A stretch of 64,000 nucleotides of DNA from Oscarella lobularis (lineage: Eukaryota). The stretch lies in NCBI RefSeq assembly GCF_947507565.1, contig NC_089192.1, positions 982,690 to 1,046,689 on the forward strand, written 5' to 3'. Both the position numbers and the translations under genes were made by a program. Within the stretch, counting starts at the first letter, position 1. Each line of letters begins with the position of its first letter. The notes under the pieces are model-generated. The model did no database searches, had not been told where the DNA came from, and was given only the letters and a program-made list of their open reading frames with translations. Below are positions 1 through 41,508 of this stretch, one piece after another.

Positions 1-1870
1 TTAGGCTCTTAGAATCAAGGTTTAGGCCCTCAATTTTATATTTAGTCCTTTAGAATCAAAATTTAGGCCCTCAATTTAATATTTAGGCTCTTAGAATCAA
101 GGTTTAGGCCCTTAATTTTATATTGAAGCCCTCAGAATCAAAGTTTAGGCCCCTTTTTTTTATATTTAGGACCTTAAAATCAAAGTTTAGGCCCTCAATT
201 TTATATTTAGGCTCTTAGAATCAAAGTTTAGGCCCTCAATTTAATATTTAAGCTCTTAGAATCAAAGTTTAGGCCCTCAATTTTATATTTAGGCTTTAAG
301 AATCAAAGTTTACGCCCTCAATTAAATCTTTAGGCTCTTAGAATCAAGGTTTAGGCCCTCAATTTTATATTTAGTTCTTTAGAATCAAAGTTTACGCCCT
401 CAATTTTATATTTTGGCCCTTAGAATCAAAGTTTATGCCCTCAATTTTATATTTAGTCCTTTAGAATCAAAGTTTAGGCCCTCAATTTTATATTTAGGCC
501 CTAAGAATTAAAGTTTAGGCCCTCAATTTTATATTTAGGCTCTTAGAATCAAATTTGGCCCTCAATTTTATATTTAGTCCTTTAGAATCAAAGTTTAGGC
601 CTTCAAGTTTATATTTAGGTCCTTAGAATCAAAGTTTAGGCCCTCAATTTTATATTTACTCCTTTAGAATCAAAGTTTAGGCCCTCAATTTAATATTTAG
701 GCTCTTAGAATCAAATTTAGGCCCTCAATTTTATATTTAGTCCTTTAGAATCAAAGTTTAGGCCTTCAAGTTTATATTTAGGCCCTAAGAATCAAAGTTT
801 AGGCCTTCAATTTTATATTTATGTCCTTAGAATAAAAGTTTAGTCCCTCAATTTTATGTTTAGGCCCTTGGAATCAAAGTTTAGGCCCTCAATTTTATAA
901 TTAGTCTCTTAGAATCAAAATTTAGGCCCTCAATTTTATATTTAGGCCCTTAGAATCAAAGATTAGGCCCTCCATTAAATATTTAGGCTCTTAGAATCAA
1001 AGTTTAGGTCCTCAATTTTATATTTATTCCTTTAGAATCAAAGTTTAGGCCCTCAATTTAATATTTAGGCTCTTAGAATCAAATTTAGGCCCTCAATTTT
1101 ACATTTAATCCTTAGAATCAAAGTTTAGGCCCTCAATTTTATATATAGGCTCTTTGAATCAAAGTTTAGGCCTTCAATTTTATATTTAGGTCCTTAGAAT
1201 AAAAGTTTAGGCCCTCAATTTTATATTTAGGTTCTAAGAATTTTAGTTTAGGCCCTCAATTTAATATTTAGGCTCTTAGAATCAAGGTTTAGGCCCTTAC
1301 TTTTATATTTAGTCCTTTAGAATATAATTTCAGGCCTTCAATTTTATATTTAGGCCCTAAGAATCAAAGTTTAGGCCCTAAATTTAATATTTAAGCTCTT
1401 AGAATCAAAGTATAGGCCCTGAATTTAATATTTAGGCTCTTAGAATCAAGGTTTAGGCCCTTACTTTTATATTTAGGTCATTAGAGTCAAAACTTAGGCC
1501 CTCAATTTTATATTTAGGTCCTTAGAATCAAAGTTTAGGCCCTCAATTTAATATTTAGGCTCTTAGAATCAAGGTTTAGGCCCTTAATTTTATATTTAGG
1601 CCCTCAGAATCAAAGTTTAGGCCCTCAATTTTATATTTTGGCTCTTATAATCAAAGTTTAGGCCTTAAATTTTATATTTAGGTCTTTAGAATAAAGGTTT
1701 AGGCTCTCAATTTTATATTTAGTCCTTTAGAATCAAATTTTAAGTCCTCAATTTAATAATTAGTCTCTTAGAATCAAGGTTTAGGCCGTCAATTTTATAT
1801 TTAGTCTTTTGGAATCAAAGTTTATGCACTCAATTTTATATTTAGGACCGTAGAATCAAAGTTTAGGACC
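1..1870. repeat. Satellite array with a 41-bp unit, consensus about tttaggccctcaattttatatttaggctcttagaatcaaag. It has about 45 tandem copies at roughly 85-95% identity. Each unit is built from two related ~20-bp half-units that both begin tttaggc. The array is cut by the window start.
   Basis: Direct reading: the 41-bp period repeats head to tail from position 1 to about 1870 with scattered point substitutions. It ends abruptly at unique GC-rich sequence. Confidence 0.95.
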
Positions 1871-1932
1871 TCAATTGTATATATATGATTTAGTTTCGAG
1901 TTTCTTTGGAGTTTCGCCAAGCGCGCACGTGA

Positions 1933-9070: not shown

Positions 9071-12045
9071 TTAGATAAATTTGAAACATTTAGTTCTGTC
9101 CGAGGGTATCCTCGTCTTAAAAAGAATCGAATCGGCGCGAAATTGCGTGTAGAGTAGCGGCATGTAGCCGTAGACTTTAACGAAGTAATTAATGCATTCG
9201 TGACGTTCCTCGAAATGGCTGTTGTCGCCGGACAAGGCCTCCGGACAGCCGGGGCAGCGGAAAGTCCACCGCGAAGTAACCTAGAAATAAGATTAAAAGA
9301 GTTTCCGTTAAGAGGGTGACTCCCTTACCTTTACGGGCGGCTTTCGCGTGACGTGCGACACGAGAAAGTTCATTGCTATGTCCTCGCAGTTCATGTACTC
9401 GTCGACCTTGTCGCGTATCGATTGCGACATGGTATACGAGTAAAGATACATGTAGTACTGGGGGGGAGAAAGTCGAGCATTATTAGACAGACACTCCTTA
9501 GTTTGTCTTACCTTATGGAAAAACGCGGCACCGGTTAGTACCATTGACATTTCGCACGAATAATTCGCGTTGTAGTTCCACCTGCCTGGATGGCGTGCGT
9601 CCCACGCGTGAAACCGTCCCGGAAATCCGACGATGCGATCCTTATTCTCCCTCCAGACGCTGTTCGAAATAAGAGCCACAATAGTTGCAGTCAAGGCCCT
9701 CGCGAGAATTTTGTACCGCACCGAAAAGCAAGTTGAATTTCGTCGTGCCTTAAATGGGCGTCATCATCCATCGATAGTACGGCCTCCGTTTCGATTTTAT
9801 CGAACGGCAGGAAGCGATTGTTCAAACTGTTCTTCCCCGTCGTAATAACCTAGATAGAGGTATTGAACTGGGGGTGTATAAGCAACAGGCGAGACTCCTT
9901 TGCACTTACGTGTATTGGAATGCCAATGTTGGGCCATTCCATGTTGGCCGGCGGCGGTTGCGGATTGTTCCACACAACGACGATCGTGCGCAAGTACTGC
10001 AAATTCCGGAGCCGCTCCAGCGCCGCGGTCAGCACCAAATTGCGATCGAACGTCAACATGACAATCGTGAACTGTTCGTCCGGCACGTTGCCGGCGAGAA
10101 GAACGTCGAATTCGGGCCCATTCAAAGGCCCTCCGTCGCGAACTGTTCGGTGAAGATTCTTTCCTCGCCCGGGCCCCATGTACTGAAACCCCGAAGGCAG
10201 AGCGGAAACGAACGGCGTCACGGACGGCATCCCAACCAGCGCCCCAGGCGAATCGTTCCACGCATCGTAACTATTCAGCGTGAAATTTTTCTGAAATCGC
10301 GGCGACGGCGCTTCCACTGCTGCCACGCCACCCGCAGCCTCTCCGAACGGCGACGTTTCGCCGTCGGCAAACACGCCGACGGTGCGCGCTTCCGCGACGA
10401 CGTTCGGCGGCAAACCGATCCGCGTTCGCACGACGGCGACGACGCTATCGACGACGCGCGTCGCCGATCCGAAGTACGTCTCCCAGACGAAGCGTCCGCG
10501 TCGACGCATATCCAAGACGTCGCCTTCGGCGACGGCGCGAAGAAAGAAATTCAACTCGGTCGCTCGCGCGTCGGCGAGACGAAACGCAACGCGACTCCAA
10601 TCGAGTACGTCGTCGAAGGGAAGTCGAACGTCGCCAACGACGATGGGAACGGCGCCGGCGCGAAGCGATTCGACGAGACGCGCGTGCGTCGTCGTTTCTC
10701 CACCACCGAGAATGAGAGCGAATGTAGACGAAGATAAAGAGGCGACTCGTTGCGACGACGTTCCGCAGAGATGCCACTCGCCTGGACGCGCGACGACGGT
10801 GGCGTCTTTCGGCGCCGTCCGCGTGCATTCGGTTGCGACGACGAGTTCTTCGTTGTCGTGCGCTCGAATCGACGCCAGGTCGGCCGGCGTCGTTGCTAGC
10901 GACAACGGTTGCCGTGCGGGAGGATTCCACTCGCCGCGAAAGTAGATTAGGTAGCGTCGAAAGGCGGGAAGCTGGCGAGGCGGCGGCGGGAGTGGCGACG
11001 ACGAGGAGAACATCGCGATGGGCGGCGCGACGACGTCGAATCCACGCCGATGGCGCGGATTGGAGTGACGAGCGACGATCGCGCGACCGACGTTGTCGGG
11101 AAAGTTGTCCGTCGTCGTCGAATTGGTCACGTCGACGAGCAGGTGATTGCGACCGTCGCCGCGCCAATGGGCGAGCGACTTGAACGCGTTCTCGTCCCAC
11201 TGACGTCGTCGACTATCAACGAGAACGAGATAGAGGCACGCTCGATTTGGATTCGACGTGTAATAGGGAGCCAATTTGATGTGCAAGGCAAGACGTCGAA
11301 GCAACGCTGACTCGTCCGTCGCGGACCCCTCGTCGTACAAATGCACGGCAAATGGAGTCGTAAGAGAACAGCGCGAGAAATCGAAGCACGTCAAAAGCCG
11401 ACACGCCCCCGCCATTCTCTCGCCCGGAAACGGCACAGGAACCGCCGCGGCGTCTTGTGACGTCACCCCCGGCACAATGACTCGCTTCGGCGGTACGGCT
11501 TCGACGAGACGAACTCCTCCCCGACTCTCATCCGGGGATCGTTTCGCGACGACGACGACGTCATTCTCGACGCCGCCGCCGCCGCCTCGTTGAGAAGCGA
11601 GGCGACGAAGATCGGCGCGCGTCGCCTGGAGTTCGGCTTTCGCTTTGGCGACGTCGTGCGCGAGCGCGTTGCGTCGGCTCTTCGTCTCTTCGAGTCGCGA
11701 CGCCGCCGTTTGGGTCGCCTGTTGAATCGACTGGCGACGGCGCTCGAGATCGCGTACGTCGTTGCGTACGGCGTCGCGAAGTCGTTCGAGTTCGGCGATG
11801 CGACGCTTGAGCGACGCGCCGTCGTTTTCGTCTTCCAGCGTGCGCACTTGGGGTTTTAGGTGAACGACGGCGAAGTTTCCGTCGTCGTCGTCGCTCGCCG
11901 CGCCGTCGTCGACGTTCTTTGGGGTCGCCGGAAGGTTTAGAAGCACGCCGATGGGTACGAAGACGCCGACGACGAATAGGAGACCGAGCATCGGCCGCAG
12001 TGAGAGCCTGCGATGAAGTTGACGGAGAACACTGCGAAGAACCAT
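9071..12045 (-). CDS. Exostosin-family glycosyltransferase, EXTL3-like. It has an N-terminal TM anchor, a coiled coil, an exostosin GT47 domain and a GT64 domain. There is a large 5' exon (9850-12045) plus 3' exons.
   Basis: Minus ORF 9850..12045 begins [36 protein letters not shown] (signal anchor). It continues with a coiled coil and [41 protein letters not shown] (start of GT64). Minus ORF 9308..9721 adds [38 protein letters not shown] and [20 protein letters not shown]. The terminal exon ends ...TKCFKFI* near 9071. Confidence 0.8.
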
Positions 12046-22903: not shown

Positions 22904-25865
22904 ATGAGCGGAGGCAGCAAACGTCTCAACCGCTATACATTCGATCCCGATCGGCCCCAACTCCAGGCACCGGACAGCGACGAAATGAATCCCCTCCTCG
23001 GCTCGCAGCAGAGCGGCGCTGCGCCGACGATGACGAGCAAGGGAATGTTTCGCATGTTCGCTTGCTCGTTTATCGCAACGATCGGCTCGCTGATCTTCGG
23101 CTATTGTCTCGGATTCTCGTCGCCGGCACTCGTCGATCCGTTGCTGGTCAAGGACATACTGGGCGAGTCGGCGCAGAATTGGTTTAGCGTAAGAACACAC
23201 GCGAATCGCAGCCACGGCGCGATTTTCCTAAGATATCGTCCATGCCACGCCCTCGTGTTGTAACACGTACTGCACATAGGTGTAGAGATTTCTTTGTTGT
23301 TGAACTCTAAACATAGAGAGGTGTACGTACTCGTACAACTATTAGTAAGAGTGTTACCAATACTTTTAGTAAGTGTTTAGTGGGAGGTATCAAAATTTGC
23401 CCCATGCTTGTTCTTCCAATCAAATTATTTTCTTGGATACAAATCTTATATTTTCTCTCGCAGTCTATTATCAATATTGGTGCTGCCATTGGCGGGGTTT
23501 CCACGTCGGCTATCGCCGTCAAATTCGGTCGCAAAGGAACGATTATGTTCGCCGGGCTACCGTATGCGATCGGCTGGCTGCTTGTTCTCCTTCCCGCCTA
23601 TCTGCACACGCTGGACGGCGTGTCCAACTCTCTTCTCGTGTCACTTCTTCTCGTTGGTCGCGCCCTATCAGGCGCCGGACTTGGTATAGCGTCTGGCATC
23701 ATTTCGGTGAGTGAAAGCAAATCATTCATTTCAGATGATCCCCCCTTAGTAGTTTGTACCCTGGGTGCATGAGCAGTTCTGAGTCAGACGCAAGTAGCAT
23801 AGGCACTTCATTTTATATGCAAAGGCTACTGAGATTAGATCTCAATAATGTAACATACAGGTGCTAGTTCATAATATTAATATTATTTATTTTGCGTCTT
23901 CTAGATCTACATTTCTGAAATAGCGACTCCCGCGTATCGCGGTTTCCTCGGCACATGCTTTCAACTCTCCGTCACGATAGGCCTTCTCCTATCCTACCTC
24001 TTGGGTCGTGAGCTCGCCCACTATCCGTGGCTGGCGACGGTCGCTCTCGTCCTCACGGCGAGTCTCGTCGTTCTCGGCCTTTGGATTCCCGAGAGTCCTC
24101 GCGCACTTCTCCTCAAGAATCGTCCCGACGAGGCGCGTCGCAGTCTCGAGTGGCTCCGCGGCGGCCCGGGCGTCGACGTCGGTCGCGAGTTGCAAGACAT
24201 CGAGAAGACCCTCATGGATCAGGAGCCTTTTGCCTTGGGCGAATTGTCGAAGCCGACCATATGGAAGCCGTTCGCCGTCGCCTTGGGTCTCATGTTCTTT
24301 CAGCAATTCTCCGGAATCAATGCCGTCGCTTTCTACGCGAGCGTCATCTTCGACGGCGTCGGCTCGTCATTTCAGGAGAAGAACGGTCCACTTATCATAG
24401 CCGTCGATCAGGTATATTAATTAATTAATTACTCGCAGGGTCCATAAGTAATTTTAGTAGAAATAATCTCACAAGGTCCATGAGTTATTTTAATAGAAAT
24501 AATCTCATTCTGTAGAAAATTACTCATAGGGTCCATGAGTACATTTTCTAGAGATAGTAATGGCAGGAAGAAAAAATTCTATTTTCCCTTAGCAGTCGGA
24601 CGCTGCCATTGACCACGCCATTATTATGCACGAGTGGTGTTCCTTGCGCCTGAACCGCAAGCGCCGCTCGCGCGCAACGAGTTAGACACTTACCTCTCAA
24701 AAGTGGGCGTTCCCGCCATCGCTACACTGTAACTTTTTATGCGCGAGTGGCGTTCCATGCGCCTGAACCGCAAGCGCCGCTCGCGCGCAACGAGTTAGAG
24801 ACACTTACCCCTCAAAAGTGGGCGTTCCCGCCATCGCTACACTGTAACTTTTTATGCGCGAGTGGCGTTCCATGCGCCTGAACCGCAAGCGCCGCTCGCG
24901 CGCAACGAGTTAGAGACACTTACCCCTCAAAAGTGGGCGTTCCCGCCACATCGCTACACTGTACTTTTTATGGGCGAGTGGCGTTCCTTGCGCCTGAACC
25001 GCAAGCGCGGCTTGCGCGCAACAACTTGCAGACACTTGTTGATCAAAAGTGGGCATTCCCGTCAACGCTATATTATGCTTTTTAATTGGATGCATTTTAC
25101 TAGAAATAATCTCAAGAAAATTACTCACAGGGTCCATGAGTAATTTTACTAGAAATAATCTCAAGGAAATTACTCACAGGGTCCACGAGTAATCTCATAG
25201 AAAATTACTCACAGGGTATCTATGGGTAATTTTACCTGAAATTTTCTCATAGAAAATTAATAACTTAAAAATAATGTAGTAGAACCATCCAGCGTGTTTA
25301 TTTTATTTCATATCTTTTTTTTTCCTTACCAAAGGTTGTTGCCACTGCTATCGCCGCTCTGGTTATGGATAAGCTGGGTCGACGAAAACTCCTCGTTCTC
25401 TCTGGAACACTCCAGTGTCTAAGCATCGTCGCGCTTGGCGTCTTCTTCCAAGTCAATCACTGCCTGAACGTGAAGGAGCCATCCGATTCACCCTGTACGT
25501 CGTCGCCCGAAGTCGGTCCGCTTTCCCTCGTCGCTCTCATCGTCTACATGACGGGCTTCTCGTTCGGCTGGGGCGCCATACCGTGGCTCCTCATGTCGGA
25601 GATATTGCCGTCGAAGGCGCGAACCATTGCCGGCGGCGTGTGCACGTTCTTCGTCTGGATGTGCTCCTTTGCTGTGACGTACATGTTCAATTCGTTGACG
25701 AAGTTGATTCACAAGAACGGCACGTTTTATTTCTTCGGCGGCTGGGCGTTCGCTTCCGTCATCTTCGTGCTGCTGTTCGTGCCGGAAACGAAAGGAAAGA
25801 CGCTGGAGGACATCGAAATGTACTTTGAACGTGGCAATAAAAGAGCAATCAATGACGATTCGTAA
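22904..25865 (+). CDS. Major-facilitator sugar transporter, Tret1/GLUT8-like. It has 4 coding exons (22904-23190, ~23463-23706, ~23905-24416, ~25334-25865) and a large third intron full of repeats.
   Basis: MFACSFIATIGSLIFGYCLGFSSPALVDPL. LLVGRALSGAGLGIASGIIS. IYISEIATPAYRGFLGTCFQLSVTIGLLLSYLLG. PESPRALLLKNRPDEARRSLEWLRG. FFQQFSGINAVAFYASVIF. Exon 4 has the GWGAIPWLLMSEILPSKARTIAGG and PETKGKTLEDIEMYFE sugar-porter signatures. Confidence 0.85.
24425..24560. repeat. Intronic tandem repeat with a unit of about 42 bp and 3 copies (attactca[c/t]agggtccatgagta[a/c]ttttactagaaataatctca).
   Basis: Direct reading. The same unit recurs at 25095-25260. Confidence 0.8.
24600..25085. repeat. Intronic tandem repeat of about 122 bp with 4 copies, the last one degenerate. 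Core is gcgagtggcgttcc[a/t]tgcgcctgaaccgcaagcgccgctcgcgcgcaacgagttagagacacttacccctcaaaagtgggcgttcccgcca(ca)tcgctacactgtaactttttat.
   Basis: Direct reading. Units start near 24600, 24725, 24845 and 24965. Confidence 0.85.
25095..25260. repeat. Second block of the 42-bp intronic tandem repeat, about 4 copies, in the same orientation as the 24425 block.
   Basis: Direct reading. Confidence 0.8.
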
Positions 25866-33533: not shown

Positions 33534-34535
33534 GTTTTGGTTTTCTAATGAGATGTTTTTGATCTTTTCACACCCGCTTGCAGGTAGCTAAGCAACGACG
33601 GCGACGTGACGTTTTCTTGCAGAATGGCGTTTCTTGAGGTTTTGTTTCATAGGCGCTCTGTTTCAAACGACCGGTTGCTAGGGTGCATGAAAGCGAAAGC
33701 TTTTCATGTAGACTAAAAATGATATGAATGTGTTGGGGTGCGTGGGAATGGTGTGGAGGGGGAGGAAGCAGGAAAAACAAGCGCTAGATGGTCCCCAAAA
33801 AGAGGCCTCGTCTTACAACTCGGTTAAGAATCCTTGGAAATCGTAAAGAACAAGGAGGAAACGTCGAACAAGACGCCCCGCGACCAGTTCCATCCTTCGA
33901 AAAATCGATAGATCGAAGCATGCGCGCAGTGAGCCTCGATCGTGTTTAGATCTCGATCTTAGACTCCCGCAAGGCTCAATCAAATCGTCCTCGTCTTCTT
34001 GTCGCTTCGAAAAGCGGCAATTTCTCGTGGCGTTCCTCGAATGTGAAATTTCGAAAGCGAAAGCGAATGGGAAGACCCTGTAGAGAAAAGAAATGCATCT
34101 AAACGTTAGATTCCTCTTCGGAATACGAAAAACGTCATCGACCACGAGGAGCCGCCATTATTCTAGCGCCAAAATCAGCCACGGTACGATACCGTAAAGA
34201 GTACGTGGAAAATTGGCCCGAGCTTTCTCGACGAACCAGCGACTCGTTGCCCCGGTGAATCGAAGACAATGCGGTCACCAACGGATATTGCACCTGCTTT
34301 CGTATAAAAGCCGCTGCGCCATGCGCACAACTTCAGTCCTGGTTAGGTGGGGAAAGCCAACGGGCGGAACCCTGGAGGTCGTCGGCGTCGGGAAAGCCTC
34401 GGTCATGTCAACATTAATCGTGCTCAGTCGGTTGCCGTTCCTTGCTGAAGCTGTGAGGTGCAGTGGATGAGCGTCGCGCGAGTTCTTCTCGTGGCGCGCG
34501 ATCGGCACTGGGAAAGTCACTAAGGGCTCGTTGGA

Positions 34536-34845
34536 TTTCATATATTGAGAAAAACAGTATAAGAGAAGAACAGAGAGACAGGGAACAACAGCAAAGGACG
34601 AAAAACAACAACAGCTAAAACATAAATACATACAAGGGAGGGGTTAATGGGTATTGGAATTGCAGCGTGTGCTAGCCACCGCCGCTGGATTTCATATATT
34701 GAGAAAAACAGTATAAGAGAAGAACAGAGAGACAGGGAACAACAGCAAAGGACGAAAAACAACAACAGCTAAAACATAAATACATACAAGGGAGGGGTTA
34801 ATGGGTATTGGAATTGCAGCGTGTGCTAGCCACCGCCGCAAGACT
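34536..34845. repeat. Tandem repeat with a 154-bp unit, 2 full copies plus a partial leading copy from about 34470.
   Basis: 34536-34689 and 34690-34843 are near-identical (ggatttcatatattgagaaaaacagtataagagaagaacagagagacagggaacaacagcaaaggacgaaaaacaacaacagctaaaacataaatacatacaagggaggggttaatgggtattggaattgcagcgtgtgctagccaccgccgc). Confidence 0.9.
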
Positions 34846-35635: not shown

Positions 35636-37640
35636 CATGAAAGCGCTCCTCTTTTCATCGTCGCTCGTTCTTTGCCTCGTTCCTTTTGTGCTCCCAATGG
35701 AAAATCGAGGCAAGATCGCCGCTCTTCTGCGCTGGCTACGAAAAGATGGCGGATACATTTCGGATCGCGTCGCGATCGTCAATTTCGCCGACGCGGGCCT
35801 CGGAATCGAAGCAGTAGAACCGATAGAAGTAAAGCGGTCATTGGCCAGTCTCGTCTATGCCACGCCCAAACGAATATTCGACATTTTTTTCTAGCGAGGA
35901 CACGTGGTCGCAAGAATTCCTCTGTCATTGCTAATGAACATCGAGCACGCGGTCGTTTCGCCCGAATTCGGTCCTGTTTTGGACGAATTCGACTATCTTA
36001 GCGATATCAACGCAATGGCCGCCTTTCTCGCTTTCGAAAAATCGAAGAAAAATTCAAAGTGGAAATCCTACATCGATCTTTTACCGGATCGCTTCTCGAC
36101 GACGCTATTCGCTTCGAAACGCGACTTAGAGGCATTGGAAGGCTCTTCAGTACAGCTGACACATTAATTAAAATCAAACTATTGGCGTATTTTTCAGGTG
36201 AAAATTTTTGCTGAACGGCGCAATGAAGCGGTGGAGAAAATGTACGAGAGACTTTCCGCTGATCTGCGTCGAGTTTTTCCGGACATTCGCTTGACGCGGT
36301 ACAGCAATGACATTATTGAATTATTATTCCCATTTTATTTAGTAGTCCGTTTATCGTAGGGAGGCCTTTTTGTGGGGTCTGTCCGTACTTTGGAGTCGAT
36401 CGCACAACGTTCGAGTTTTGGGACCAGATAGCCAATGGCATCAGGGTGAGACTTCTACCAATTAAATAATTCTCGATATGGGGGAATTGTTTCTTAGCTT
36501 CCTGCCTTATCCCTGTTGCCGATTTATTTAACATGGCTCCGAGTGATGAACAAGTGACGATTGAATGCCAAACGAATGCCAAATCGACTCATTTTGAATG
36601 TTTGGCTATGTCAACGGTATCTCGTCACTCACAGGTAGCTACTGTCCTATCATCAAAGCAGGACGTTATTGATTATCTTCTGAAAGTTATTTGTTATGTA
36701 TAGTAGCGTAGCGAGTCGGAGGCACAACAGTCACCTTCTGATGGATTACGGCTTCGTGCTCCAAGACAATCCGTATGACTGTGTCATAGTGGAAACGCCG
36801 AAGCCGCGTGACGATGACACGGAACGAAATCTAAGGCGAGTGCTATATAATATAGGATAATTCGTTATCGTTATCGTGTGATGACAAGGCACCAAATGAT
36901 TGAAAGCGTTTGATTAGTATAGTGGTGCTAGGGGCCAGCTGACGTTTGTATATTTCTCCATGTATTTTTTTGTGTATTTTGTCTGTTCGTTATTGGTGAG
37001 GCGTTTTCTATTCCTAGACTGGAGATTTTGTCGTGGGTTCCCGAACTGCAGATGCCCTACATTCAGCTGCACCGTCTCAATGCCAGTCAACTGCTTCAGT
37101 CTGCGCTGGTGAGACCGTTTAGGAGGACGCATAGTCGAAAGCCTAAAGAGGAATCAATTGCAGATGACTGCCATGAGAATACTTGTCATGCCGAAGAATT
37201 CCCTTCAAGACTTGCACGATATGAGAGGAGAAAAGAAAGGGGAGAACATTAACAAGGTAAATGTATATGCATTGATCCAAGTGTAACGCTTTTAATTAAT
37301 ATTTCTCGTCGTTTTGCAGATTGGCTCTCTGCCTCCTCCAGACGAATTAAAAGCCCTCCAAAGAGCAATGGACTTTGTTGAGAATATTTTGCGCGGATAC
37401 CCGAGCGACGAGGAGGAGGCAAGATGCACTACTACACTATAGTCTAGCGTCACCACTGGTCACTCTTCCTTTCTTTCTGTATAGGAAAATAGTGAGGATG
37501 GCGACGGTGACACGTCGTCAAAGCTGAGAACGTATGCAGTCGTTCTGTTGAGAGACGAGAAGAGGATTCTCAAAGACATCGCCGAGACGTTTGAGCAGCA
37601 AATTAGAAAAGTAACAAGACTTTTATTCGACGATCTGTAA
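35636..37640 (+). CDS. SET-domain lysine methyltransferase of the Rubisco-LSMT-like SETD3/SETD4/SETD6 class, in about 8 exons.
   Basis: N-terminus GKIAALLRWLRKDGGYISDRVAIVNFADAGLGIEAVEPIE. HAVVSPEFGPVLDEFDYLSD ... SKWKSYIDLLPDRFSTTLFASKRDLEALEGSSV. EAFLWGLSVLWSRSHNV. SRRHNSHLLMDYGFVLQDNPYDCVIVE. The last exon reads ...YAVVLLRDEKRILKDIAETFEQQIRKVTRLLFDDL*. Family-level call from motif recollection. Confidence 0.6.
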
Positions 37641-37810
37641 CAGTTTGACAAAAGAAGCACAGCAGCGCAACAACACCACAAACCATCAAGACTGCGCGCA
37701 AGAAACAACTAAAAAATCACGTTTCGCCACGACGTCAAGCATATTTTTCGTATCTGGCGGCACCTAAGAGATTATCGATATGAACCCACCTCTTTTTTTT
37801 GCACCGCCCA

Positions 37811-38277
37811 CTAACCGGAACTGGGAGTTTGAACGACAGTGGTGACGGATTCGCCTCGACGGCAGGCGGCGCAGCAGCCACAGCAGCAGAGAATGCAGAC
37901 GAGAACGATGATGACGACGATAGCAATTCCTACGCCAATGACAGCCCATATCCTGTTTAGAAGGAAGTTCGTTGTCTGGGGGAGGGTGGGGTCCACGCAG
38001 AACGTTACCACGTCGCAAGTCCGCTAACGGCGTGACTTATGTTGTCGCAGAGGTCGTTTACATCTTTCGTGCAGCACGACGAACTGCTCGAATCGCATTT
38101 GCAGCAATATTGGTCGTTGGCATTGTTGCACGCGAGTGGGGGTGACGTCGAACAGGTCTGAATTTCGGCCGTGGCGCCTGCAGAGCATTTCACTTGTTTG
38201 CGCACTCGTATCCACGTTTTGCACCTACCTGTTGCGGCGACAAGGAGGAAGACGAGCGACAACGTGCACGACGCCAT
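37811..38277 (-). CDS. Tiny three-exon gene, copy 1, for a cysteine-rich single-pass membrane protein of about 125 aa. It has a signal peptide, a Cys-rich ectodomain, a TM helix, then CCCGCCAAC and a short tail.
   Basis: Exon 1 MASCTLSLVFLLVAAT(G). A 51-bp GT..AG intron. Exon 2 GATAEIQTCSTSPPLACNNANDQYCCKCDSSSSSCCTKDVNDLCDNISHAVSGLATW. A 52-bp intron. Exon 3 IWAVIGVGIAIVVIIVLVCILCCCGCCAACRRGESVTTVVQTPSSG*. Confidence 0.55.
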
Positions 38278-38426
38278 AGATCAGATCATGTGACTGATTC
38301 GTTCGGAGCAGGTCTTTATACATTGCAATACGGTTCTAGTCTCGCCACGTGACCGTTGGGAAAGGGTCACGTAGCGAAAGGCATTAGACTAATTATTATT
38401 ACCGAGTGGTGTATTAGTGACATGCT

Positions 38427-38660
38427 GTGAACGTATGGGAAGGATCATTCTACCGACATACTGGCTCTCACTTCTATCTGGGTCAGCAGCGTGAAATGAG
38501 AGCTAGATTTGATATTTCCTCATTGGAATGCATCCATGCCTCTCTAGCTTACGCAGTCGTTCTATTAAGAGACGAGAAGAGGATTCTCAAAGACATTGCC
38601 GAGACGTTTGAGCAGCAAATTAGAAAACTAAAAAAACTTTTATTCAACGATTTGAAGACG
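38427..38660 (+). pseudogene. Mosaic pseudo-exon. A truncated copy of a TTC38 internal exon, with its flanking intron (gtgtattagtgacatg), is fused to a copy of the terminal exon of the SETD gene.
   Basis: 38427-38545 encodes NVWEGSFYRHTGSHFYLGQQREMRARFDISSLECIHASL, matching TTC38 exon 39960-40135 ([51 protein letters not shown]) with an internal deletion. 38546-38660 encodes YAVVLLRDEKRILKDIAETFEQQIRKLKKLLFNDL, matching SETD last exon 37530-37640. Confidence 0.7.
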
Positions 38661-38864
38661 GTTTGACAAAGAAGCACAGCAACACAAGACAACGCATCAG
38701 CACAGCAACACAAGACAACGCATCAGCACAGAGACGGTAAGACTGCGCGCAAGGAACAAGTAAGGAGTCACGTTTCGCCACGTCAAGCAAATTGTCCGTA
38801 TCCGCCACCTAAAGGGGATAATAGAGAGTGGACCCGCCTCTTTTTGCACCGCCCACTAACCGGG

Positions 38865-39313
38865 AGATTGAACGACAGTGGTGACGGTTTGGTCTCGACG
38901 GCAGGCGGCGCAGCAGCCGCAGCAGCAGAGAATGCAGGAGAGAACGATGATGACGAAGATAGCGATTCCTACGCCAATGACAGCCCATATCCTGTTTAGT
39001 AAATCAATTAGAGGATGTTTGTTGACTGGAGGGCGGGGTCACGCAGAAGGTTTACCACGTCGCAAGTCCGCTAATGGTGTTGCAGACATCGTTTTCTGCT
39101 TTCGTGCAGCACGACGTGCTAGTCGCACAGCAGCAATATTGGTCTTCGTCACTGTCGCACGGAAACCGAGTGTAGGGGAAAGTCGGATTCGTACAGAAGC
39201 TAATATCGGCCGCGGCGCCTGCACAGAGCATGTTTTGAAATCCACGTTTTTGCACCTACAGTACCTGTTGCGGCGACAAGGAGGAAGACGAGCGAGAACG
39301 TGCACGACGCCAT
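38865..39313 (-). CDS. Copy 2 of the cysteine-rich single-pass membrane protein gene, with the same three-exon structure and a conserved first-intron position.
   Basis: Exon 1 MASCTFSLVFLLVAAT(G). Intron. Exon 2 ...AAADISFCTNPTFPYTRFPCDSDEDQYCCCATSTSCCTKAENDVCNTISGLATW. Intron. Exon 3 IWAVIGVGIAIFVIIVLSCILCCCGCCAACRRDQTVTTVVQSPG*. Confidence 0.5.
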
Positions 39314-39368
39314 CGATCAGATCATGTGACTGACTCCTTTTGGAGCATGCGCGCGGTAAAGAGAAACA

Positions 39369-41508
<2,140 letters not shown>

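What the first reader, a model, noticed from the sequence alone, without database searches (positions are those of the whole stretch)
37640..39366. Tandem pair of tiny Cys-rich single-pass membrane protein genes inside a local duplication that also produced a mosaic TTC38/SETD pseudo-exon
Between the SETD gene's stop and the TTC38 start lie two minus-strand copies of a three-exon mini-gene. Their introns are 51-52 bp and the first intron sits at the same position in both copies. Each copy encodes a signal peptide, an ectodomain of about 50 aa with a conserved cysteine pattern (C-x6-C-x7-CC-x-C-x5/6-CC-x9-C), a TM helix, and the juxtamembrane motif CCCGCCAAC, which is a palmitoylation-like cysteine cluster. 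I cannot assign it to a named family. The duplication unit also carried the SETD terminal exon. In the second unit that exon copy is fused to a truncated copy of an internal TTC38 exon plus its intron flank (38427-38660). This records a non-allelic recombination between the two flanking genes. The ectodomain differs more between the two copies than the TM and cysteine-cluster exon does, which suggests the ectodomain has evolved faster.
Basis: seen in the sequence. Interest (0 to 1): 0.6.

Follow-up and report, generated by a model that had tools for sequence, protein, structure and literature searches.

The report
Tandem pair of short Shisa-like genes
Two neighbouring copies of a tiny cysteine-rich membrane-protein gene in the sponge Oscarella lobularis are real but belong to the known Shisa family of membrane adaptors, and the odd "mosaic exon" between them is the scar of the local duplication that made the second copy.

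Summary
Two minus-strand paralogues (127 aa and 122 aa) lie in a ~1.04-kb direct duplication, 37533-38312 versus 38550-39349 (BLAST E=7e-175).

Corrections: each gene has four coding exons and three introns (51/56/52 and 46/64/52 nt), with phases 1-2-1. The cysteine spacing is C-x7/11-C-x7-CC-(x)-C-x5/6-CC-x7-C.

My spliced model of copy B is identical to RefSeq XP_065843741.1, "protein shisa-5-like [Oscarella lobularis]". O. pearsei transcripts encode two close relatives.

The family is nameable as Shisa-like, of the Shisa-4/5 type. The evidence:
- the 8-Cys C*C*CC*C*CC*C pattern;
- a TM + CCxCC + TTVV[QH]xP module matching vertebrate Shisa-5 (hhalign 97.6%);
- intron positions and phases shared with a Saccoglossus Shisa_N gene and alligator Shisa-5.

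Against membership, the Pfam Shisa_N model does not hit these proteins, and the proline-rich PY tail is absent.

The "mosaic pseudo-exon" is the junction of one tandem duplication. A decayed, frame-broken piece of a TPR-gene exon abuts a copy of the SETD gene's 3' end. That copy carries the only AATAAA signal downstream of copy B.

The ectodomain exon is the most diverged part, at roughly intron-like rates, and positive selection is not shown. This is an ordinary new member of a known family, of modest interest for the pre-bilaterian origin of Shisa.

The parts
37735..38277 (-). Copy A coding region, 127 aa. Exons are 38277-38229, 38177-38009, 37952-37816 and 37763-37735 (stop included). Introns are 51, 56 and 52 nt with phases 1, 2, 1.
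   Evidence: Spliced translation is intact with GT..AG at every intron. It is 69% identical to copy B. The exact protein is absent from the 15-billion-sequence collection.
38783..39313 (-). Copy B coding region, 122 aa. Exons are 39313-39265, 39218-39056, 38991-38861 and 38808-38783 (stop included). Introns are 46, 64 and 52 nt with phases 1, 2, 1.
   Evidence: Spliced translation is identical to P0001 = XP_065843741.1, 'protein shisa-5-like [Oscarella lobularis]'.
37533..38312 (.). Duplication unit 1 (X). It comprises the 3' part of the SETD last exon and stop, the convergent 3' UTR of copy A, gene A, and ~35 nt upstream of its ATG.
   Evidence: Direct-repeat families D1-D11, mafft alignment, BLAST E=7e-175.
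38550..39349 (.). Duplication unit 2 (X'). It comprises the copy of the SETD 3' exon piece (38550-38660, now non-coding for SETD), copy B's 3' UTR, gene B, and ~35 nt upstream of its ATG.
38394..38546 (+). Z': a decayed copy of the TPR (TTC38-type) gene's intron flank plus exon (real copy 39934-40131; real exon about 39959-40132). It ends at the duplication junction with X' at about 38546/38550.
   Evidence: BLAST E=7.6e-25. Alignment gives 140 matches and 21 mismatches, with deletions of 7, 11, 19, 5 and 2 nt that break the frame.
38427..38666 (+). Most likely a chance ORF.
   Evidence: ORF list. Its TPR-derived half is frameshifted relative to the real exon.
37622..37627 (-). AATAAA for copy A. 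It lies antisense inside the SETD last coding exon (37485-37640).
   Evidence: It is one of only two minus-strand AATAAA in 37500-38800, about 110 nt downstream of A's stop.
38639..38644 (-). AATAAA for copy B. It lies inside the copied SETD exon piece.
   Evidence: It is conserved with the copy A signal and lies about 140 nt downstream of B's stop.
38673..38731 (.). Perfect 26-bp tandem repeat (2.3 copies) in copy B's 3' UTR. Copy A has one diverged unit.
38313..38393 (.). 81-bp filler with no match elsewhere in the window, sitting where ~0.6 kb of duplicated TPR-gene 5' sequence would be expected. It contains TATAAAG (38320-38314, minus strand, about 40 nt upstream of A's ATG) and an imperfect palindrome at 38342-38377 with CACGTGAC-type half-sites.
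   Evidence: Sequence. BLAST self inverted hit for 38342-38377, and no other hits.
39314..39469 (.). 156-bp divergent intergenic region between copy B's ATG (39313, minus) and the TPR gene's ATG (39470, plus). I infer that it is a shared bidirectional promoter. Only its first ~35 nt are duplicated upstream of copy A.
   Evidence: Sequence. The promoter role is inference only.

Best explanation
The locus carries two tandem paralogues of a short Shisa-like (Shisa-4/5-type, STMC6 superfamily) type-I membrane protein in Oscarella lobularis.

Each protein is built from four modular exons:
- a signal peptide;
- an ectodomain of about 50 residues with eight cysteines, inferred to form four disulfides;
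- a TM helix followed by CCCGCCAAC, inferred to be S-palmitoylated, and an RR-x3-VTTVVQ-x-P motif;
- a short C-terminal exon, GYGQxA in three of the four Oscarella proteins.

By analogy with Shisa and STMC6 proteins, it most likely works as a small membrane adaptor. The disulfide-rich ectodomain and TM segment would bind partner membrane proteins and influence their maturation or trafficking. It lacks the proline-rich PPxY tail that lets other family members recruit NEDD4-type ligases. This functional step is inference and was not tested.

The second copy arose by one tandem duplication of about 2.6 kb. One breakpoint lies inside the SETD last exon (~37533) and the other at the 3' end of a TPR-gene exon (~40131). 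This created the Z'|X' junction at 38546/38550. Most of the duplicated TPR 5' part was then deleted.

The copied SETD piece persists because it contains copy B's 3' UTR and poly(A) signal. The two genes converge and overlap tail to tail.

Both copies have stayed open. All ectodomain indels are in frame, unlike those in Z'.
For: Gene reality:
- The B splice model equals a RefSeq protein.
- Two O. pearsei transcriptome ORFs are 48-54% identical to A and B. They share all eight cysteines, LATWIW-VIGVGIAI, CCCGCC and the exon-4-encoded GYGQxA.

Family assignment:
- The published Shisa signature is C*C*CC*C*CC*C plus cysteines at the end of the TM helix (Shisa-5: CC[SP]CC***C), proposed as palmitoylation sites (PMC10531659).
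- An exhaustive HMM search of 1.84 billion representatives gave only 11 distant hits. They include proteins named shisa-3 homolog (Saccoglossus), shisa-4-like (Artemia) and shisa-5-like (Patiria). Two pass the Pfam Shisa_N gathering score and three give sub-threshold CYYR1 hits.
- hhalign of the four Oscarella proteins against those hits gives 98.1%, E=7e-14, across ectodomain and TM.
- hhalign against an independently gathered set of vertebrate Shisa-5 gives 97.6%, E=3e-12, over TM, Cys cluster and TTVV[QH]xP.
- The Oscarella HMM scores 120 real Shisa-5 proteins at a median of 17.9 bits. The maximum over 2520 shuffled or reversed controls is 11.3 bits.
- Intron architecture is shared. Phases are 1-2-1, with intron 1 in or next to the Gly codon ending the signal peptide, intron 2 just before the TM helix, and exon 3 of 137 nt in both copy A and Saccoglossus P0006. 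Alligator Shisa-5 has the same phases plus one extra 2-2 linker exon.

Duplication model.

Poly(A) signals.
Against: - Pfam Shisa_N gives no hit at E<=10 for any of the four Oscarella proteins, while real Shisa-5 scores 38-48 bits.
- Ectodomain-only profile comparisons are weak: 21% against Shisa-5 and 6.6% (P=0.0055) against the invertebrate set. The true Shisa-5 ectodomain against that same set reaches only 63%.
- Most of the statistical signal therefore comes from the TM, Cys-cluster and tail segment, which is compositionally biased.
- The set used had been selected by the Oscarella profile itself, so that comparison is partly circular.
- There is no PPxY motif and no proline-rich tail.
- The AlphaFold2 model is unusable (pLDDT 62), so there is no fold-level test.
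- Copy A is not in the protein collection and lacks most of B's upstream region, so its expression is unproven.
- Palmitoylation, topology and adaptor function are all inferred.
Confidence: 0.75

Rival explanations
1. The proteins are a lineage-restricted Oscarella orphan family. They only converge on the Shisa layout of a small disulfide-rich ectodomain, a TM helix and a poly-Cys cluster, and are not homologous to Shisa.
For: - No Pfam Shisa_N hit.
- Ectodomain-only hhalign is weak.
- Only one 50%-cluster representative at E<1e-10 among 1.84 billion proteins.
- A published survey that included O. carmela found no Shisa outside Bilateria (PMC7653359).
Against: - The TM, Cys-cluster and TTVV[QH]xP match to independently collected Shisa-5 is order-specific: reversed controls score at most -3.3 bits, against 17.9 median for real proteins.
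- The 8-Cys pattern is the same.
- Intron phases 1-2-1 and near-identical intron positions are shared with a Shisa_N-positive gene.
- The top distant hits are enriched in shisa-named proteins.
Confidence: 0.15
2. Only copy B is a working gene. Copy A is a young duplicate that lost its promoter and is drifting toward pseudogenisation.
For: - Copy A's protein is absent from the collection that holds the RefSeq protein of copy B.
- Homology upstream of the ATG ends after ~35 nt, so A lacks B's divergent promoter region.
- A's tail lost the conserved GYGQ motif (GAARYEKYA). Tail dN is 0.27 against dS 0.065, though this rests on few sites.
- A has a 4-residue insertion before the TM helix that the three other proteins lack.
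Against: - The ORF is intact and all six splice sites are canonical.
- All eight ectodomain cysteines and the Cys cluster are kept.
- Every indel relative to B is in frame, whereas the neighbouring pseudo-exon Z', of the same age, has five frame-breaking deletions.
- A TATAAAG lies about 40 nt upstream of A's ATG.
- O. pearsei also keeps two intact paralogues on one transcript contig.
Confidence: 0.25
3. The uneven divergence (exon 2 at 24%, exons 1 and 3 at 2-7%) reflects gene conversion that homogenised the gene ends after an older duplication. It would not reflect faster ectodomain evolution.
For: Synonymous divergence is itself uneven: about 9.6 of 30 sites in the ectodomain against 3 of 52.8 elsewhere (Fisher P=0.0015). 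Paralogues are closer within each species than between species, as expected under concerted evolution.
Against: - The junction relic Z' cannot be converted by A-B exchange, yet it is still 87% identical to its source. This argues for a young duplication.
- Introns counted with gaps are 61-78% identical, similar to exon 2 at 71%. Exon 2 may therefore simply be near neutral while exons 1 and 3 are constrained.
- The counts are small.
Confidence: 0.3

Closest known systems
Vertebrate Shisa-5 (Scotin) and Shisa-4
   Same: - Type-I layout with a signal peptide.
- Eight-cysteine ectodomain, C*C*CC*C*CC*C.
- TM helix ending in a CC-x-CC-xx(x)-C cluster.
- Basic residues followed by a TTVV[QH]xP motif (hhalign 97.6%).
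- A phase-1 intron at the end of the signal peptide, a Cys-rich exon ending in phase 2, and a TM exon running from phase 2 to phase 1.
   Different: - Oscarella proteins are half the length (122-128 aa against about 240 aa).
- They lack the whole proline-rich PPxY tail and the linker exon.
- They do not reach the Pfam Shisa_N threshold.
- Their Cys spacings differ (CC-x-C-x6-CC against CC-xx-C-x4-CC).
- Intron 3 lies after the TTVV motif rather than before it.
Invertebrate Shisa-like proteins: Saccoglossus XP_006812204.1 ('shisa-3 homolog'), Patiria XP_038071296.1 ('shisa-5-like') and Artemia XP_065569592.1 ('shisa-4-like')
   Same: - They are the best distant hits of the exhaustive profile search.
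- They are similar in size (143-258 aa).
- They share the F/W-x-C ... Y-CC ... CC ectodomain core, GLA(T) before the TM helix, a Cys cluster, and TTVV[HQ].
- The Saccoglossus gene has the same four coding exons with phases 1-2-1 and a 137-nt exon 3.
   Different: Most have six ectodomain cysteines (C*C*CC*CC) and a CP motif after the second cysteine. They carry PPxY motifs in the tail. Oscarella has eight cysteines and no CP or PPxY.
Other STMC6 families (CYYR1, WBP1/VOPP1, TMEM92)
   Same: Small single-pass proteins with an N-terminal Cys-rich segment and cysteines in or near the TM helix. Several of the distant hits give sub-threshold CYYR1 matches.
   Different: The Oscarella proteins themselves give no CYYR1, WBP-1 or related Pfam hit. 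These families act through multiple PPxY motifs (PMC11399591), which are absent here.

Membership tests
Shisa family (Pfam Shisa_N, PF13908) | Match to the Shisa_N profile at or above its gathering score (22 bits) | tested here: not met
   No Shisa_N hit at E<=10 for copy A, copy B or the two O. pearsei proteins. Positive controls scored 37-48 bits.
Shisa family | Ectodomain cysteine pattern C*C*CC*C*CC*C following a signal peptide | tested here: met
   Pattern as defined in PMC10531659. Copy A has cysteines at 25, 33, 41-42, 44, 51-52 and 60. Copy B has them at 25, 37, 45-46, 47, 53-54 and 62. All eight are conserved in O. pearsei. This is a pattern match only. Ectodomain-only hhalign is weak.
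Shisa family (Shisa-1 to -5 subgroup) | Single TM helix with a cysteine cluster at its cytoplasmic end (Shisa-5: CC[SP]CC***C) | tested here: met
   ILCCCGCCAAC follows a 19-residue hydrophobic peak. It aligns with Shisa-5 CFTCSCCCLYKxC in hhalign at 97.6%, E=3e-12. Palmitoylation itself was not tested.
Shisa family | Proline-rich cytoplasmic region with PY ([LP]PxY) or PDZ-binding motifs | tested here: not met
   The tail is only about 24 residues and contains no [LP]PxY. The same holds for the O. pearsei proteins.
Shisa family | Shared gene architecture with bona fide members. This is supporting evidence, not a formal criterion. | tested here: met
   Phases 1-2-1 with introns at the signal-peptide end, before the TM helix and after the TM-tail exon, in Oscarella, Saccoglossus P0006 and alligator Shisa-5, which has one extra 2-2 exon.
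STMC6 superfamily (Pei & Grishin 2012) | Single-TM protein with six conserved cysteines, C*C*CC*CC | tested here: met
   Definition quoted in PMC5578492. The Oscarella pattern contains it. Full-length hhalign to Shisa_N/CYYR1-type hits gives 98.1%, with the caveat that those hits were selected by the same profile. The original paper (PMC3295595) could not be read.
   No such family appears among the Pfam hits at E<=10. Only sub-threshold hits with generic TM character appear.

The most novel reading that the evidence does not exclude
The Oscarella genes are true pre-bilaterian Shisa-4/5-type genes in a minimal form: an 8-Cys ectodomain, a TM helix, a palmitoylatable Cys cluster and the TTVVQ motif, with no PY tail. 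If so, the Shisa core module and its exon structure date to the base of animals. That would contradict the survey that found Shisa only in Bilateria and none in O. carmela (PMC7653359). The PPxY tail would then be a later addition. The genes would also be prone to recurrent, lineage-specific tandem duplication with rapidly changing ectodomains, as expected for a protein that tracks changing partners.
Probability: 0.35. Interest if true: 0.45.

Novelty: new member of a known kind. Interest (0 to 1): 0.27.

Why it matters
The finding adds little mechanistically. Copy B is already an automatically annotated gene of a known family, and the structural oddity is a normal duplication scar.

It has two modest points of value:
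1. It gives sequence, motif and intron-phase evidence that Shisa-4/5-type genes exist in a homoscleromorph sponge. One published survey reported the family only in bilaterians, while another paper is cited as having found sponge homologues. It also suggests the ancestral form may have lacked the PY tail.
2. It is a clean small example of how a tandem duplication is constrained by overlapping convergent genes. The copy had to carry a piece of the neighbour's coding exon because that piece holds the mini-gene's poly(A) signal.

Tried and rejected
- **Pfam on all four Oscarella proteins.** Only sub-threshold TM-type noise (CoV_E, Baculo_F, Prominin and similar), rejected as compositional.
- **AlphaFold2 of copy B with a 12-sequence alignment.** pLDDT was 62 overall and about 56 in the ectodomain, too poor for a fold search, so none was run.
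- **PDB profile search.** Only CD9 and P14 at E>=0.08, rejected.
- **The look-up of encoding contigs for P0001, P0002 and P0003.** Nothing on record, so there was no second assembly, haplotype or O. pearsei DNA to date the duplication.
- **Word-indexed search with Saccoglossus P0006.** It returned only itself and one paralogue.
- **Pfam and NCBIfam on single exons of the flanking genes.** Uninformative. The SETD identity came from the PDB search and the TPR identity from plasmid tblastn.
- **Pei & Grishin 2012 (PMC3295595).** Not held.
- **MITF/TFE-type TCACATGA motif upstream of both ATGs.** The window count is not above chance, and the two sites are duplicates of each other.
- **Positive selection on the ectodomain.** NG86 omega is 0.64 with elevated dS, and divergence is similar to that of the introns when gaps are counted, so I do not claim it.
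- **The C-terminal GYGQ[FM]A as a GYxxØ sorting signal.** This is only a resemblance recalled from LAMP-type tails. P0003 (GYGQTA) and copy A (YEKYA) fit poorly, so it stays speculation.


Full report
**What is in the sequence**

The window is eukaryotic, with introns of about 50 nt. Copy B's protein is identical to NCBI XP_065843741.1 from Oscarella lobularis, a homoscleromorph sponge. Between a plus-strand SETD3/LSMT-like gene ending at 37640 and a plus-strand TPR gene starting at 39470 lie two direct repeat units, 37533-38312 and 38550-39349. They align over 849 columns at 76% identity, E=7e-175.

Each unit contains a minus-strand gene with four coding exons and three GT..AG introns:

| | Copy A | Copy B |
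|---|---|---|
| Exon 1 | 38277-38229 | 39313-39265 |
| Exon 2 | 38177-38009 | 39218-39056 |
| Exon 3 | 37952-37816 | 38991-38861 |
| Exon 4 | 37763-37735 | 38808-38783 |
| Protein | 127 aa | 122 aa |
| Introns | 51/56/52 nt | 46/64/52 nt |

Intron positions and phases (1, 2, 1) are identical in the two copies. The four-exon model is the RefSeq model. Its last exon encodes GYGQxA, which is conserved in two O. pearsei transcriptome proteins. Those two proteins (128 aa each, 48-54% identical to A and B) sit on one Trinity contig.

**The protein**

The N-terminus is hydrophobic and signal-like. The ectodomain is about 50 residues long with eight cysteines: C-x7-C-x7-CC-x-C-x6-CC-x7-C in A and C-x11-C-x7-CCC-x5-CC-x7-C in B. 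It is followed by a strongly hydrophobic helix, the string CCCGCCAAC, RR, VTTVVQ-x-P and a short tail. There is no PPxY motif.

**Family**

The published Shisa signature is a signal peptide, C*C*CC*C*CC*C, one TM helix, cysteines at the end of that helix in Shisa-1 to -5 (Shisa-5: CC[SP]CC***C, proposed palmitoylation sites) and a proline-rich tail (PMC10531659). The wider STMC6 group is defined by C*C*CC*CC (PMC5578492).

Direct Pfam scans do not hit Shisa_N, CYYR1, CYSTM or dispanin models. An exhaustive profile search of 1.84 billion representatives found only 11 distant hits, at E = 3e-5 to 1e-3. Among them:
- two Saccoglossus 'shisa-3 homolog' proteins that pass the Shisa_N gathering score;
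- Patiria 'shisa-5-like' and Artemia 'shisa-4-like';
- several proteins with sub-threshold CYYR1 matches and PPxY tails.

Profile-profile comparison with these hits gives 98.1% over ectodomain and TM. That set had been selected by the Oscarella profile, so the comparison is partly circular.

For an independent test I used a recalled human SHISA5 sequence only as bait to fetch real, named Shisa-5 proteins. The Oscarella alignment matches twelve of them at 97.6%, E=3e-12, but only over the TM helix, Cys cluster and TTVV[QH]xP.

An HMM of the Oscarella proteins scores 120 real Shisa-5 sequences at a median of 17.9 bits. The maximum for 2520 shuffled or reversed controls is 11.3 bits, and reversed sequences reach at most -3.3 bits.

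The ectodomain alone is weak: 21% against Shisa-5, and 6.6% (P=0.0055) in the expected register against the invertebrate set. True Shisa-5 against that same set reaches only 63%.

**Gene-structure test**

The Saccoglossus Shisa_N-positive gene has four coding exons with phases 1-2-1. Intron 1 lies in the Gly codon ending the signal peptide, intron 2 just before the TM helix (GLA|T), and intron 3 just after TTTVVH. Its exon 3 is 137 nt, the same length as in copy A.

Alligator Shisa-5 has a phase-1 intron right after the Gly that ends the signal peptide. Its Cys-rich exon ends in phase 2. It then has one extra 2-2 linker exon, a TM exon running from phase 2 to phase 1, and finally the proline-rich exons.

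This shared architecture is independent of the sequence statistics. Together with the cysteine pattern and the tail motif, it makes Shisa-like membership the best reading, at about 0.8. Two defining features are not met: the Pfam Shisa_N threshold and the PY tail.

**The duplication and the 'mosaic exon'**

The fragment 38394-38546 copies 39934-40131, which is about 25 nt of intron plus a TPR-gene exon up to its donor site. It has 140 matches and 21 mismatches, and deletions of 7, 11, 19, 5 and 2 nt. It abuts 38550-38660, a copy of the last ~36 SETD codons and stop.

This is the arrangement expected at the junction of a single tandem duplication of about 37533-40131. The end of the segment is joined to its start. 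The first copy's TPR 5' part (~0.6 kb) was later lost and is now represented by an unrelated 81-bp filler. The 79-aa ORF across the junction mixes frames of the TPR exon and is most likely accidental.

The only minus-strand AATAAA signals in 37500-38800 lie at 37627-37622 and 38644-38639. The first is inside the SETD last exon and the second inside its copy. The mini-gene and the SETD gene therefore converge and overlap. A working duplicate of the mini-gene had to take that piece of SETD exon with it. This last step is inference.

**Divergence between the copies**

Protein identity between A and B is 38/63 for signal peptide plus ectodomain, against 44/55 for TM plus tail.

NG86 estimates:

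| Region | dN | dS |
|---|---|---|
| Ectodomain | 0.27 | 0.42 |
| TM + Cys cluster | 0.04 | 0.09 |
| Tail | 0.27 | 0.065 |

The tail estimate rests on few sites. The synonymous excess in the ectodomain is significant (Fisher P=0.0015), and exon 2 differs more than cleanly aligned non-coding blocks (P about 1e-4). When gaps are counted, however, the introns (61-78% identical) resemble exon 2 (71%).

I conclude that the ectodomain evolves at about the neutral rate apart from its cysteines and a few motif residues, while exons 1 and 3 are constrained or were homogenised by gene conversion. Positive selection is not demonstrated.

All indels between A and B are in frame, in contrast to Z'. This argues that both copies have been kept as coding genes.

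Paralogues are closer within each Oscarella species than between species. With the still-recognisable junction relic, this favours separate recent duplications in each lineage, although concerted evolution is not excluded.

**Open points**

Copy A's protein is not in the searched collection. Only ~35 nt upstream of its ATG are shared with B, so it lacks B's 156-bp divergent promoter region. It has a TATAAAG about 40 nt upstream instead. Its expression is therefore unverified. Topology, palmitoylation and adaptor function are inferred from family knowledge.

**Context and verdict**

One survey of 31 animals, including O. carmela, reported Shisa only in bilaterians. The same paper notes that sponge homologues had been described elsewhere, and it proposes Shisa5 as closest to the ancestral form (PMC7653359). 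The Oscarella genes fit an early, Shisa-5-like, tail-less form.

This is a correct observation of an ordinary thing: a young tandem duplicate of an already annotated, divergent member of a known family, together with the scar of the duplication.

Noticed in passing
window 1-1882: A 41-bp satellite of about 46 copies at 84% matches (unit TTAGGCCCTTAGAATCAAAGTTTAGGCCCTCAATTTTATAT). GC is 0.32 and the array runs off the start of the window.
   Followed up: no
window 24432-25193: A 115-bp unit repeated 3.9 times (24624-25070, 91% matches). It is flanked by short 36-bp and 49-bp repeats that appear to share an AT-rich motif, judged by eye from their consensus units. It may be a repeat-bearing mobile element.
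   Followed up: no
window 34532-34839: A perfect (100%) tandem duplication of a 154-bp unit upstream of or within the 5' region of the SETD-like gene. Its perfect identity implies a very recent event or an assembly artefact.
   Followed up: no
window 10001-12000: A local GC peak of 0.63 against a window background of about 0.48.
   Followed up: no
window 38342-38377 and 38314-38320: An imperfect palindrome with CACGTGAC / GTCACGT half-sites and a TATAAAG in the 81-bp filler upstream of copy A. Copy B's upstream region instead has CGCGCGCATGC and no TATA, so the two paralogues probably have different promoters. TCACATGA lies 9-16 nt upstream of both ATGs but is not above chance in the window.
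   Followed up: partly
L001 1-5970 (Saccoglossus kowalevskii GL011187.1); P0004 (Pinctada imbricata, 366 aa): The Saccoglossus locus carries a 421-aa gene model with two Shisa_N domains overlapping the 157-aa gene. The Pinctada protein contains two complete ectodomain-TM-polyCys-VVVQGQQTP modules. Tandem copies of these small genes, sometimes merged by gene callers, therefore seem common across animals.
   Followed up: partly
O. pearsei EukProt contig comp28072_c0_seq1 (P0002 at 56-442, P0003 at 1144-1530): Both O. pearsei paralogues lie in the same orientation on one assembled transcript. This could mean read-through or bicistronic transcription of the tandem pair, or overlapping UTRs joined by the assembler.
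   Followed up: no
window 1-64000: No tRNA genes and no Rfam family matches at gathering thresholds anywhere in the window.
   Followed up: yes
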